Of a stretch of DNA of 64,000 nucleotides, positions 1 to 6,000 are shown in pieces. Numbering within the stretch: position 1 is the first letter of the stretch; each line of letters begins with the position of its first letter. The position numbers are program-made. Source of the DNA: Escherichia coli (GTDB lineage Bacteria > Pseudomonadota > Gammaproteobacteria > Enterobacterales > Enterobacteriaceae); assembly GCF_029227855.1 (NCBI RefSeq), contig NZ_CP074356.1; one strand, 5' to 3'.

Positions 1-3000
1 CGCTACAATGCCTTAACCAGCATTAGCTCAAATGCGGAAGTCAGCCTCGATAATACGCAGGGGTTAGGCAGAGGAAATATTGCCAATGACGGTCTGTTAA
101 CGCTAAAAAATGTGACCGGCGAACTGCGTAATAGCATAAGCGGGAAGGGTATCGTGAGCGCAACCGCCAGGACAGACGTAGAGCTGGATGGCGATAATAG
201 CCGCTTTGTGGGGCAATTCAACATTGATACAGGCAGCGCGCTCAGCGTCAACGAGCAGAAAAACCTGGGTGATGCTTCCGTTATCAATAATGGCCTGCTC
301 ACCATCTCCACTGAGCGTAGCTGGGCGATGACGCACAGTATCAGCGGTAGCGGTGATGTGACAAAACTGGGTACCGGGATCCTGACTCTTAACAAAGATT
401 CCGCGGCGTATCAGGGTACGACGGATATCGTGGGTGGTGAAATTGCTTTCGGTTCCGACTCTGCCATTAATATGGCAAGTCAGCACATTAATATCCATAA
501 CAGCGGTGTGATGTCGGGAAATGTCACCACTGCAGGTGATGTGAACGTTATGCCAGGGGGGACACTGCGTGTCGCTAAAACCACTGTCGGCGGTAACCTG
601 GAGAATGGTGGCACGGTTCAAATGAACAGCGAAGGGGAGAAACCGGGGAATGTACTGACCGTTAACGGTAACTATACCGGAAACAATGGCCTGATGACGT
701 TCAACGCGACGCTGGGCGGCGATAATTCGCCCACCGATAAGATGAACGTGAAAGGCGATACCCAAGGGAATACTCGCGTTCGGGTTGATAACATTGGCGG
801 CGTCGGTGCACAAACGGTCAACGGTATTGAACTCATTGAGGTTGGCGGTAATTCTGCAGGTAACTTCGCGCTGACCACCGGAACTGTCGAAGCTGGGGCT
901 TACGTCTACACGCTGGCTAAAGGGAAGGGGAATGACGAGAAAAACTGGTATCTGACCAGTAAATGGGACGGCGTAACGCCAGCGGATACACCCGATCCCA
1001 TCAATAATCCCCCTGTTGTGGATCCGGAAGGCCCATCAGTTTATCGCCCGGAGGCCGGAAGCTATATCAGCAACATTGCCGCAGCCAACTCGCTGTTTAG
1101 CCATCGCTTACACGACCGTCTGGGTGAGCCGCAGTATACAGATTCACTGCATTCTCAGGGTTCGGCAAGCAGTATGTGGATGCGTCATGTCGGGGGGCAC
1201 GAACGTTTCAGGACCGGTGACGGCCAGCTAAATACTCAGGCTAACCGCTATGTATTGCAGCTAGGAGGCGATTTGGCGCAGTGGAGTAGCAACGCGCAGG
1301 ATCGCTGGCATCTTGGCGTGATGGCAGGCTACGCCAATCAGCACAGTAATACTCAGAGTAATCGTGTGGGTTATAAATCGGATGGGCGCATCAGCGGTTA
1401 CAGCGCAGGACTGTACGCGACCTGGTATCAGAACGATGCGAATAAGACCGGCGCTTATGTTGACAGCTGGGCGCTGTATAACTGGTTTGATAACAGCGTC
1501 AGTTCCGATAACCGTTCTGCTGACGACTATGATTCTCGCGGTGTAACGGCCTCTGTTGAGGGTGGGTATACCTTTGAAGCGGGAACATTTAGCGGCAGCG
1601 AAGGGACGCTGAATACCTGGTACGTCCAGCCACAGGTGCAAATCACCTGGATGGGTGTGAAAGATTCTGACCATATCCGGAAAGACGGAACACGCATTGA
1701 AACGGAAGGAGACGGAAACGTGCAAACGCGGCTTGGGGTGAAAACCTACCTGAACAGTCATCACCAGCGTGACAATGGTAAACAGCGCGAGTTCCAGCCT
1801 TACATTGAAGCGAACTGGATCAACAACAGCAAAGTCTACGCCGTGAAGATGAATGGCCAAACCGTAAGCCGTGATGGTGCGCGTAATCTCGGTGAAGTAC
1901 GTACCGGAGTTGAGGCGAAAGTAAATAACAACCTTAGCCTGTGGGGGAATGTCGGTGTGCAACTAGGTGATAAAGGCTATAGCGATACTCAGGGCATGCT
2001 GGGTGTGAAATATAGCTGGTAAACCGTATAAGCCGCATGTCGAAGATGCATGCGGCTTAATATTGCCGACTTCAAACGACTTTTAAATCCTCCTTTTTAT
2101 CCGCGATCGCGGATATCACAGTGTTTATCCCGTAGAGCGGATAAAATGTGTTTACAGATTGACTTTATCCTCACTAAAGGATAAAACTGATAATATCCCC
2201 TTGAGCGGATAAATTTGCTGTGGACGTATGACATGATGAGCTTTCAGAAGATCTATAGCCCAACGCAATTAGCGAATGCAATGAAACTGGTTCGTCAGCA
2301 AAATGGCTGGACGCAGAGCGAGCTGGCGAAAAAAATCGGTATTAAGCAGGCGACAATTTCCAATTTCGAAAACAACCCTGACAATACCACGCTCACGACA
2401 TTTTTTAAGATTTTACAGTCGCTTGAACTCTCAATGACGCTATGCGACACGAAAAATGCCTCGCCAGAATCAACAGAACAGCAAGATCTGGAGTGGTAAT
2501 GCCTAAACTTGTCACTTGGATGAACAACCAGCGGGTAGGCGAGTTAACGAAGTTAGCCAATGGCGCGCACACCTTTAAGTATGCACCGGAGTGGTTAGCT
2601 AACCGTTATGCCAGACCGTTGTCACTTTCGCTGCCATTGCAGAGGGGGAATATCACCTCTGATGCCGTATTTAACTTCTTCGATAACCTGTTACCCGATA
2701 GCCCGATTGTACGTGACCGGATCGTTAAACGTTATCATGCTAAATCCAGACAACCGTTTGATTTATTGTCAGAAATAGGGCGAGATAGCGTTGGTGCCGT
2801 AACGTTATTACCCGAAAATGAAACCATAACGCGCCCGATAATGGCATGGGAACAGCTCACTGAAGCCAGGCTTGAAGAAGTATTAACGGCTTATAAAGCA
2901 GATATCCCTCTGGGCATGATTAGAGAAGAAAATGACTTTCGCATCTCGGTTGCTGGCGCGCAGGAGAAGACAGCGCTGCTCAGAATAGGCAATGACTGGT

Positions 3001-6000
3001 GCATTCCGAAAGGAATAACGCCGACGACGCACATCATTAAATTACCGATTGGCGAAATCAGGCAGCCCAATGCGACGCTCGATCTCAGCCAAAGCGTTGA
3101 TAATGAGTATTACTGTCTGCTGCTGGCGAAAGAACTTGGGTTGAATGTGCCGGACGCAGAAATCATTAAAGCGGGAAATGTGCGCGCGTTAGCGGTCGAA
3201 CGTTTTGACAGGCGTTGGAATGCTGAGCGAACGGTTTTACTTCGCTTGCCACAGGAGGATATGTGTCAGACATTCGGTTTACCTTCATCGGTGAAATATG
3301 AATCAGATGGAGGCCCAGGCATCGCGCGGATCATGGCTTTTTTGATGGGGTCCAGCGAGGCGCTGAAAGATCGCTATGATTTTATGAAGTTTCAGGTGTT
3401 CCAGTGGTTGATTGGCGCAACGGATGGCCATGCAAAAAACTTCTCCGTATTTATTCAGGCTGGCGGCAGTTATCGACTCACGCCATTTTACGACATCATT
3501 TCAGCATTTCCGGTATTGGGTGGCGCAGGAATACACATCAGCGATCTCAAACTGGCAATGGGGCTTAACGCATCCAAAGGCAAAAAAACGGCAATCGATA
3601 AAATTTATCCGCGACATTTTCTGGCGACAGCAAAGGTGCTGAAATTTCCGGAAGTGCAGATGCATGAAATCCTGAGTGACTTTGCCAGAATGATTCCGGC
3701 AGCACTGGATAACGTGAAGACTTCATTACCGACAGATTTTCCGGAGAACGTGGTGACGGCAGTTGAAACCAATGTGTTGAGGTTGCATGGACGGTTAAGC
3801 CGAGAATACGGTAGTAAGTGAGATATGGGGTTTGGTCGTTGTTAATGAGCACGACAATCATGACCGCCAACGACTGGATTCTTCCTTGGTTTATGCTGGT
3901 GCGCATAATGTATATTATGTTAAATGTGGTGGGTTTGTTCTTAAGTTCATGTGTTCCGCTCTTTCAGTAGCTTAACTGATGAATCAGTCAGCAGCTCTTG
4001 CCGTGCAAGCTACGCGGCGGTTCGTACCAGATTGGCCACCTCCATCTCCTGGTTCGCTTTCCCCTCCCCCCGGTAAACCTCACCCAACGTTAATTAATGA
4101 TGCCAGTATGTGGGCGCTATCCTTGTATGTAAAATCCACTGACGATTACGCCCATCTGTGAAAAAAAACTCACAATGCCATTCGATGCATCTCCATACTG
4201 AACGAGGCGTTATCGTCTTTATCGCCCCGTAGTGGATATCAGAAAATCAATCAGGGCCTTCACTCTTTTCGTTTTACCCGCGTTTTTGGGGTAATAGAGA
4301 TACACTGGCGGGTAGGTTTTCCAGTAGCTCTCCATCACCGGAATAAAGCGCTCCCTGTCCGGCTGTAACTGCCAGACAGGCTCAAACAAGCGCCCAATTC
4401 CCAGCCCGTTACGGATCCCGTCTGCCATAACGTCAATATCGTTGCTGATTAACTGCCCCGGCATCTCAACGGTCAACTGCTCACCGCGATCGTTCAGGAG
4501 CAGCGGAAGGATGCGGTTGTTGGTGATAAAACGGTAACCAATCAGCTGGTGATGACAGAGATCTGCCGGCACTTCAGGCGTTCCATGTCGGGAGAGATAC
4601 GCTGAGGATGCATATAATCCTTCTCGAAACGGTTTCATTAACGGTCGGGCCACCACCCCTCCCTCAAGAATATCGCCAAAACGGATCCCCAGATCAAAAC
4701 GCTCTTTGATGATATTCACGGTACCGTCGTAGACCGAAATTTCTAACTGTATACCCGGATATTGCTGACAGAATTCTGCCATCGCAGGCTTAAGAATTAA
4801 CAGGTAGGCAAAACGCGAGAGCGTAATTCGCACCATCCCAGAGGGCTCCTGATGCTGGTCGCGAATGCTTTCAAGCGAGTTTTCCAGCGACTCCACCGCC
4901 GCAGCGGTCTGTTCCAGCAATAATTGACCGGTTTCCGTCAGCTCTATACGGCGGGTCGTACGCACAAAAAGCGGATGGCCGATATACTCTTCCAGCAGCT
5001 TTAGTGCATTGCTGACGGAGGGAGGCGTAATTTCCAGTTTCCTTGCGGCTGCCGAAATATTGCCCTCCCGCGCAATGCTCTGGAAGATGCGAATCTGGTT
5101 ATAAAGAGCGTTATTCATAATGTTTTCCTAAGCAATTCTCGCCTGATTATTAAGTACAGTCTAAAAATACTTAAGTCAATGACCCTCTAATCTTCCTGAA
5201 ATACGCCTCTTATACTTTAGTCTCTTTCTACTACGACCTGAGTTCAGGAGACTATGATGCGAATTTTATGTCTGGATATCCCTGCCCCTGGAGCATCGCA
5301 TGACGATACATTAGCGCTGCAGAGTTCAGCGGCAGGCTCTGCCCAAAATGTCGGTATTCAAATTTTGGACCGTACGGGGGAGGTATTAATACTTGATGGT
5401 GCCACTTTTAGCGCTAAAACTGACTTGATTGATGGCACGAATATACTGCCGTTCCAGGCTCGTTATATTGCTCTCGGGCAGTCAGTAGCTGGTACTGCAA
5501 ACGCTGATGCGACCTTCAAAGTTCAATATCTATAATTCAATCTTAAGGTGGCTATACGTCATCTGAAATTGAAACAGGGTGTGTGTGGCATGGCTACGCA
5601 CACCCTAGCAACTCAGAAATGTGAATCTCATTATTAATGAGGAGTGGTTTGTATTTGGAGCGCTATGAAAAATCACATAATATCTAAACGATCAATAAAC
5701 AACAGTAGTTAAACTTACTGTTATTTAAAATATTTACTTTGTAGCAAGGTTTTCCTATTAAAAGAGAACCAACATTTATTACAAACGCATTAAGTCTGGA
5801 AACCCGGCGAGTCGCCAATGTATTAGCAACATTTACTGATTGTCTGATGTAACGGTTTTCCCGCTTATCCTCTTAACACATGGAGAATGCATCAGATGCA
5901 AACTACGCGTACCCCCTACTCTATTTCCTTTATGGCGACAGTGTTACTTTTATTGCTCTTTGCTTGCCATAGTACCGTTGCCAACGCAGCTGTCGCACTG

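What the first reader, a model, noticed from the sequence alone, without database searches (positions are those of the whole stretch)
2098..3821. hipBA locus with four exact operator palindromes
Four exact TATCC-N8-GGATA palindromes precede hipB, and hipB/hipA overlap by one base (TAATG). HipA carries Gly22, the wild-type residue at the hipA7 high-persistence position. This is a textbook arrangement, recorded here because it is fully readable from the sequence.
Basis: partly seen in the sequence, partly recalled or inferred. Interest (0 to 1): 0.25.

Follow-up and report, generated by a model that had tools for sequence, protein, structure and literature searches.

The report
Ordinary wild-type E. 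coli hipBA locus
This is the well-known hipBA toxin-antitoxin operon of Escherichia coli, intact and without any known high-persistence mutation, with its four textbook HipB operator sites; it is ordinary.

Summary
Four exact TATCC-N8-GGATA sites lie at 2098, 2126, 2166 and 2194, against a chance expectation of 0.06 per 64 kb. hipB (2233-2499, 88 aa) and hipA (2499-3821, 440 aa) overlap by one base in TAATG. HipA has Gly22, and the requested check shows Asp291, so neither hipA7 substitution is present. P86 and D88, the other reported high-persistence positions, are also wild type, as are S150, D309 and D332.

The window is identical over 10.9 kb to E. coli JNEC-KY178. HipA and HipB are each 98% identical to K-12. 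hipBA DNA is found in 5,413 of 5,426 complete E. coli genomes.

Small differences from K-12 are all natural polymorphism:
- The operator gaps are 10/22/10 bp rather than 10/21/10.
- The candidate -10 reads GATAAT rather than TATAAT. This haplotype is as common as K-12's (2,199 against 1,674 exact matches).
- Three linker substitutions were seen in no other complete genome examined.
- None of the nine HipA substitutions is private.

Across 12 alleles no half-site position varies (0 of 40), while 15 of 74 spacer and linker positions do.

Verdict: already known, low interest.

The parts
2029..2059 (+). Stem-loop just after the stop codon of the upstream autotransporter gene (12-bp stem, 7-nt loop, no T-run). 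It marks the upstream boundary of the hipBA regulatory region and is not part of the operon proper.
   Evidence: MFE -18.9 kcal/mol, z = -3.24 against shuffles. The stem is conserved in E. coli alleles that carry the autotransporter, while the loop varies. The consensus scan does not call it a terminator.
2098..2115 (.). Distal HipB operator (O4 in published numbering), TATCCGCGATCGCGGATA. It is a perfect 18-bp palindrome.
   Evidence: Identical in K-12 and in all 12 alleles compared.
2126..2143 (.). HipB operator O3, TATCCCGTAGAGCGGATA, 10 bp after O4.
   Evidence: Half-sites are invariant; one spacer position (2135) varies among alleles.
2166..2183 (.). HipB operator O2, TATCCTCACTAAAGGATA, 22 bp after O3 (21 bp in K-12).
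   Evidence: It matches the published O1O2 oligonucleotide read on the other strand (PMC3376134).
2194..2211 (.). hipB-proximal HipB operator O1, TATCCCCTTGAGCGGATA, 10 bp after O2. Its N8 spacer has G at 2203 where K-12 has A.
   Evidence: G at 2203 is shared with three other alleles of the panel (L003, L011, L012).
2165..2194 (+). Candidate sigma-70 promoter (inferred, not resolved): TTATCC (2165-2170), 18 nt, GATAAT (2189-2194). It overlaps O2 and abuts O1. K-12 has TATAAT at the same place. The alternative is TTGACT (2159-2164), 18 nt, AAAACT (2183-2188).
   Evidence: Read from the sequence. The consensus scan reports no + strand promoter here, either in the window or in K-12. The mapped start site is in Black et al. 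1994, which is not held.
2233..2499 (+). hipB, the 88-aa Xre/Cro-type HTH antitoxin and autorepressor. It differs from K-12 by A73T and N85D, both in the C-terminal 16-residue Lon degron. W88 is retained.
   Evidence: The protein is WP_001296726.1, the HipB allele shared by 7 of the 12 genomes fetched. Degron and W88 roles: PMC3376134.
2490..2493 (+). GGAG Shine-Dalgarno sequence for hipA. It lies inside the 3' end of hipB, 5 nt before the ATG, which fits translational coupling.
   Evidence: Read from the sequence. The function is inferred.
2499..3821 (+). hipA, the 440-aa Ser/Thr kinase toxin. G22, P86, D88, S150, D291, D309 and D332 are all as in K-12. There are nine substitutions against K-12: S35N, I104L, D107N, V110I, H112R, K119Q, T343A, R382K, S424T.
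   Evidence: Every substitution is shared with at least one other natural allele.

Best explanation
This is the chromosomal hipBA type II toxin-antitoxin operon of Escherichia coli, intact and with none of the known high-persistence substitutions.

From the literature: dimers of HipB, a Cro/Xre-type helix-turn-helix protein, bind cooperatively to four TATCC-N8-GGATA operators and repress the operon, with HipA as co-repressor. On paired operators 10 bp apart, HipA molecules held by neighbouring HipB dimers dimerise through their N-terminal domains, which occludes the kinase active sites. Free HipB is degraded by Lon through its disordered last 16 residues. Freed HipA then phosphorylates Ser239 of glutamyl-tRNA synthetase. 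Uncharged tRNA-Glu activates RelA, (p)ppGpp rises, and the cell stops growing and becomes antibiotic-tolerant. Autophosphorylation of HipA Ser150 switches the kinase off again.

Shown here: the sequence anatomy, the family membership, the wild-type state of the persistence-linked and catalytic residues, and purifying selection on the operator half-sites.

Inferred from published K-12 work and not tested for this allele: the biochemical steps above. Also inferred: that the operators overlap the promoter, which rests on candidate hexamers read from the sequence.
For: Anatomy:
- Four exact operators against a chance expectation of 0.06 per 64 kb.
- Gene order hipB then hipA with a 1-base overlap, as published (PMC4150777).
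- Operator consensus as published (PMC3920265; PMC3376134).

Family membership:
- HipB scores 184.5 bits on the NCBIfam HipB equivalog, cut-off 79.
- HipA has Couple_hipA (E 2e-27) and HipA_C (E 8e-52).
- HipA matches solved E. coli HipA chains over its full length (e.g. 2wiu, 3dnt; E about 1e-295), and 4yg7 over residues 2-437 (E 1.6e-291).
- HipA is 431/440 and HipB 86/88 identical to K-12.

Allele state:
- G22, P86, D88, S150, D291, D309 and D332 are unchanged. Their roles are described in PMC7758455.
- hipA differs from K-12 at 24 synonymous and 9 non-synonymous codons, which fits purifying selection.

Population:
- The locus is syntenic with K-12 (lsrK, autotransporter, hipBA, fimbrial genes, ydeP).
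- hipBA DNA occurs in 5,413 of 5,426 complete E. coli genomes.
- In 12 alleles, 0 of 40 half-site positions vary against 15 of 74 spacer and linker positions (Fisher one-sided p = 0.0009).
Against: Nothing found contradicts it.

Three caveats:
- The simple sigma-70 scan finds no promoter in the operator region. It finds none in K-12 either, so this reflects the scan's thresholds.
- The exact 151-bp regulatory allele occurs in only one complete genome. It carries three substitutions (2122, 2145, 2154) not seen in the other 11 alleles compared, and their effect is unknown.
- No function was measured for this allele.
Confidence: 0.97

Rival explanations
1. The locus is a high-persistence (hipA7-like) allele whose HipA escapes neutralisation because its N-terminal dimer interface is weakened.
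For: The source strain is a human clinical isolate. HipA carries nine substitutions against K-12, six of them in the N-terminal region at residues 35-119.
Against: All four reported high-persistence positions are wild type: G22, P86, D88 and D291 (positions from PMC7758455). Every one of the nine substitutions recurs in other natural alleles from unrelated hosts, so they are common polymorphism.
Confidence: 0.02
2. The locus is a regulatory variant. The 22-bp central gap, GATAAT in place of TATAAT, the G at 2203 in the O1 spacer, and the three unshared linker substitutions (2122, 2145, 2154) would change hipBA expression or HipB cooperativity relative to K-12. This does not exclude the best explanation.
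For: The differences are real. Position 2189 falls on the first base of the only consensus-like -10 hexamer. The exact 151-bp regulatory allele is found in one genome only; the next best is 96.7% identical.
Against: The 22-bp gap with GATAAT has 2,199 exact matches among complete E. coli genome records, against 1,674 for the K-12 form. It is therefore a normal major haplotype. All half-sites and both 10-bp paired-operator gaps are intact. The unshared changes lie in linkers that vary freely among alleles.
Confidence: 0.07
3. The locus is decaying or inactive, as in strains where hipA is frameshifted or truncated.
For: Such decay exists. hipA is frameshifted in XH988 and truncated in O157:H7 and others. 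Only 4,564 of 5,426 genomes hold at least 80% of the locus.
Against: Both reading frames here are full length and without stop codons. Catalytic and regulatory residues are intact. All four operators are exact.
Confidence: 0.01

Closest known systems
hipBA of Escherichia coli K-12 (hipB b1508, hipA b1507)
   Same: Same chromosomal position and neighbours, and the same gene lengths (88 and 440 aa). Same 1-base overlap, same four operators with identical half-sites, and the same 10-bp gaps within each operator pair. Protein identity is 98% for both proteins.
   Different: The central gap is 22 bp, not 21. The candidate -10 reads GATAAT, not TATAAT. There is one change in the O1 spacer, and 13 bp are absent upstream of O4. 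HipA has nine substitutions and HipB two. Downstream, the window keeps a LysR regulator and an intact fimbrial chaperone and usher that K-12 has lost.
hipA7 high-persistence allele (G22S, D291A) and the P86L and D88N variants
   Same: Same gene and protein.
   Different: None of these substitutions is present.
HipBA of Shewanella oneidensis MR-1
   Same: A HipB-HipA pair with four palindromic operators upstream (PMC4150777).
   Different: In Shewanella the operator is GTGTA-N6-TACAC, the sites are evenly spaced by 34 bp, the genes are separated by 3 bp, and HipA is 28% identical to E. coli HipA. The window follows the E. coli pattern on every count.
HipBST tripartite systems (E. coli O127:H6, Legionella) and YjjJ (a HipA-family toxin)
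   Same: HipA-family kinase toxins.
   Different: HipT lacks the N-terminal domain, which is encoded separately as HipS (PMC7758455). The window's HipA is a single 440-aa chain with both domains. It scores 27 bits against a cut-off of 401 on the YjjJ equivalog.

Membership tests
HipBA type II toxin-antitoxin system (E. coli type) | The antitoxin is a small Xre/Cro-type helix-turn-helix protein equivalent to HipB. | tested here: met
   Pfam HTH_3 E 4.9e-15. NCBIfam NF007271 HipB equivalog 184.5 bits against cut-off 79, covering 1-88 of 88. 86/88 identical to K-12 HipB.
HipBA type II toxin-antitoxin system (E. coli type) | The toxin is a single chain with the HipA N-terminal domain and the HipA C-terminal kinase domain. 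| tested here: met
   Couple_hipA at residues 6-103 (96 bits) and HipA_C at 149-401 (176.5 bits). Solved E. coli HipA chains match at E about 1e-295 over 1-440.
HipBA type II toxin-antitoxin system (E. coli type) | Kinase catalytic and regulatory residues are present: the autophosphorylation site Ser150 and the catalytic and Mg-binding aspartates D309 and D332. | tested here: met
   S150, D309 and D332 are identical to K-12. The role of Ser150 is from PMC7758455. The roles of D309 and D332 are from my own knowledge of the HipA structures.
HipBA type II toxin-antitoxin system (E. coli type) | The antitoxin gene comes first and the genes overlap by 1 bp. | tested here: met
   hipB 2233-2499 and hipA 2499-3821, with TAATG at the junction. 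The published arrangement is in PMC4150777.
HipBA type II toxin-antitoxin system (E. coli type) | Four TATCC-N8-GGATA operators upstream of hipB, arranged as two pairs with 10-bp gaps. | tested here: met
   Four exact sites with gaps of 10, 22 and 10 bp. The published K-12 gaps are 10, 21 and 10 bp. The 22-bp form has 2,199 exact matches among complete E. coli genome records.
HipBA type II toxin-antitoxin system (E. coli type) | HipA arrests growth by phosphorylating GltX. HipB neutralises HipA and represses the operon. | not testable with these tools
   This needs expression, kinase and footprinting experiments. It is inferred from 98% identity to the characterised K-12 proteins.
hipA7 high-persistence allele | G22S and D291A substitutions in HipA. 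| tested here: not met
   Residue 22 is G and residue 291 is D.
Other reported high-persistence hipA alleles | P86L or D88N. | tested here: not met
   P86 and D88 are present. The variants are described in PMC7758455.

The most novel reading that the evidence does not exclude
The most novel reading not excluded has two parts. First, the isolated fifth exact HipB-consensus site inside the fimbrial usher gene (8081-8098, 4.3 kb downstream of hipA and conserved in K-12) could be a real HipB binding site that links hipBA to the neighbouring fimbrial operon. Second, the three unshared linker substitutions in this strain's operator region could retune hipBA expression and persister frequency. HipB has been reported to bind consensus sites outside its own promoter (Lin et al. 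2013, as cited in PMC3920263).
Probability: 0.03. Interest if true: 0.3.

Novelty: already known. Interest (0 to 1): 0.05.

Why it matters
It adds nothing new. hipBA is the founding persistence locus, and its operators, gene overlap and hipA7 positions have been described since the 1990s. The practical value of the check is negative: this clinical isolate carries none of the known high-persistence substitutions. A small by-product is the population picture. The operator half-sites are invariant while spacers and linkers drift. The central gap between the two operator pairs occurs naturally as 21 or 22 bp at comparable frequency, which suggests that the two pairs need not be strictly phased with each other.

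Tried and rejected
- Promoter scan. The consensus sigma-70 scan found no + strand promoter in the operator region, in the window or in K-12. The promoter hexamers are therefore read by eye and left unresolved between two candidates.
- Terminator scan. It found nothing relevant after hipA or after the upstream gene. The upstream hairpin folds well but has no T-run.
- Rfam. There are no matches at gathering thresholds in 1-12000.
- Primary papers. Black et al. 1994 (PMC205607), Schumacher et al. 2009 (PMC2764309) and Schumacher et al. 2015 (PMC7502270) are not held. Secondary open-access papers were used instead.
- A corrected inference. From a 10-allele 'spread' panel I first concluded that K-12's 21-bp gap with TATAAT was an outlier. 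Exact-match counts show it is a major haplotype: 1,674 records against 2,199 for the other form.
- IHF site. I considered whether the substitutions at 2118-2122 create an IHF-like site. The match to WATCAANNNNTTR is 7 of 9 specified positions by eye, against 6 of 9 in other alleles. That is too weak to claim.
- Not run. A genome-collection scan for paired operators in other genera was not run, because the verdict does not depend on it.
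Full report
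**Observation**

The region was read directly and searched for the stated pattern. Exact TATCC-N8-GGATA sites lie at 2098-2115, 2126-2143, 2166-2183 and 2194-2211. A fifth site lies far away at 8081-8098. Dinucleotide-preserving shuffles of the 64-kb window give 0.06 sites on average, and none of 100 shuffles reaches five, so a cluster of four within 114 bp is not chance.

hipB runs from 2233 to 2499 (88 aa) and hipA from 2499 to 3821 (440 aa). The junction reads GAGTGGTAATGCCTA, so the last A of the hipB stop codon is the first base of the hipA start codon. HipA residue 22 is Gly.

All parts of the observation are confirmed at the stated coordinates.

**Identity**

The 1,871 bases around the locus match a sequence in 5,413 of 5,426 complete E. 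coli genomes. They are 100% identical to strain JNEC-KY178, a clinical isolate from Japan. The window is identical to that genome over all 10,900 bases compared. Its RefSeq annotation places hipB and hipA at exactly these window coordinates.

Synteny with K-12 holds: lsrK, ECSE_1600-family autotransporter, hipB, hipA, then the ydeQRST-type fimbrial genes and ydeP.

- HipB scores 184.5 bits on NCBI's HipB equivalog model, against a cut-off of 79, and matches Pfam HTH_3.
- HipA has the Couple_hipA and HipA_C domains.
- HipA matches the solved E. coli HipA chains at E about 1e-295 over its full length.
- Against K-12, HipA is 431/440 identical and HipB 86/88.

**State of the allele**

The residues linked to heritable high persistence are all wild type: G22 and D291 (hipA7), and P86 and D88 (PMC7758455). 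So are the autophosphorylation site S150 and the aspartates D309 and D332.

The nine HipA differences from K-12 are S35N, I104L, D107N, V110I, H112R, K119Q, T343A, R382K and S424T. Each recurs in at least one other natural allele of a nine-allele panel, so none is private.

hipA differs from K-12 at 24 synonymous and 9 non-synonymous codons, the pattern of a gene under purifying selection.

The HipB sequence is WP_001296726.1, which 7 of the 12 genomes fetched also carry. Its two differences from K-12, A73T and N85D, lie in the disordered C-terminal Lon degron. The conserved W88 is kept (PMC3376134).

**Regulatory region**

Published numbering starts at the hipB-proximal site. The O1O2 oligonucleotide of PMC3376134 is the reverse complement of window 2165-2212, apart from the two K-12 differences. 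O1 is therefore 2194, O2 is 2166, O3 is 2126 and O4 is 2098.

The gaps between operators are 10, 22 and 10 bp here, against 10, 21 and 10 bp in K-12 (PMC4150777). The other differences from K-12 are:

- G instead of T at 2189, giving GATAAT where K-12 has TATAAT.
- G instead of A at 2203, in the O1 spacer.
- Thirteen bases absent upstream of O4.
- A few linker changes.

A small panel first suggested that K-12 was the odd one out. Exact-match counts corrected this. The 59-mer with the 22-bp gap and GATAAT occurs in 2,199 records, and the K-12 58-mer in 1,674. These are two major natural haplotypes.

The window belongs to the first haplotype and adds three changes, T at 2122, A at 2145 and A at 2154. 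None of the other 11 alleles has them, and no other complete genome is within one mismatch of the 151-bp region; the next best is 96.7% identical. All three lie in linkers.

Across 12 alleles, none of the 40 half-site positions varies, while 15 of the 74 spacer and linker positions do (Fisher one-sided p = 0.0009). The half-sites and the two 10-bp gaps are what selection holds constant.

The sigma-70 consensus scan reports no promoter here in either strain. By eye there are two candidates:

- TTATCC (2165-2170), 18 nt, GATAAT (2189-2194).
- TTGACT (2159-2164), 18 nt, AAAACT (2183-2188).

Both overlap O2 and abut O1, which fits repression by occlusion. The mapped start site is in a paper I could not read, so the promoter is left as an inference.

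**Mechanism**

What the sequence shows is the complete, intact anatomy of the K-12 system. The mechanism is taken from the literature on K-12 and is inferred for this allele from 98% identity.

- HipB dimers bind the four operators cooperatively and repress the operon, with HipA as co-repressor (PMC3920265, PMC3376134).
- On DNA, HipB promotes dimerisation of HipA through its N-terminal domain, which blocks the active sites (PMC7758455).
- Free HipB is degraded by Lon through its last 16 residues (PMC3376134).
- Free HipA phosphorylates GltX Ser239. Uncharged tRNA-Glu activates RelA, and (p)ppGpp brings on growth arrest and tolerance.
- Autophosphorylation of Ser150 inactivates HipA (PMC7758455).

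**Rivals**

- A hipA7-like high-persistence allele is excluded at the four known positions.
- A decayed locus is excluded by intact frames and residues. Decay does occur elsewhere: hipA is frameshifted in XH988, and only 4,564 genomes hold at least 80% of the locus.
- A regulatory variant cannot be excluded for the three unshared linker changes, but nothing suggests an effect.

**Verdict**

This is the textbook hipBA operon with none of the known high-persistence substitutions. It is already known and of low interest.

Noticed in passing
window 8081-8098: A fifth exact TATCC-N8-GGATA site (TATCCAGGTCGCAGGATA) lies inside the fimbrial usher gene (6648-9299). It is read in frame as N-I-Q-V-A-G-Y, and from memory the downstream part resembles a conserved usher motif (AGYRYS). 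It is also present in the K-12 ydeT pseudogene (L002 9587-9604). The chance expectation is 0.06 per window, and it is most likely a coding-sequence coincidence.
   Followed up: partly
window 3926-8072: K-12 lacks this 4.1-kb stretch and carries an unrelated 670 bp in its place. The stretch holds a LysR-family regulator at 4219-5118 (-), a fimbrial subunit remnant, a chaperone, and the first 1,425 nt of the usher. The right-hand boundary (8073) is 8 bp before the fifth palindrome.
   Followed up: partly
window 2122, 2145, 2154: Three substitutions in the linkers between operators are absent from the other 11 alleles compared. No other complete genome comes within one mismatch of the 151-bp regulatory region. 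Their effect is unknown, and an assembly error cannot be excluded.
   Followed up: partly
window 2080/2081: There is a 13-bp indel upstream of the distal operator. K-12 and 2013C-4225 carry an extra GCGCATCAACGCC-like segment (2013C-4225's copy differs by one base), which is absent here and in most of the panel. Two environmental or primate isolates have unrelated sequence upstream, with no autotransporter gene.
   Followed up: no
window 1-2022: This is the 3' end of an ECSE_1600-family autotransporter gene. The gene is intact (5,421 nt) in the source strain but frameshifted in K-12 and several other strains.
   Followed up: no
window 5296-5535: A fimbrial major-subunit gene is annotated as a pseudogene missing its N-terminus, although the chaperone, usher and minor subunits downstream are intact.
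   Followed up: no
window 45521-46651: A second type II toxin-antitoxin pair lies at 45521-46083 (RelE/ParE-family toxin plus the HigA-family antitoxin yddM, also overlapping by one base). An IS200C transposase gene follows at 46193-46651.
   Followed up: no
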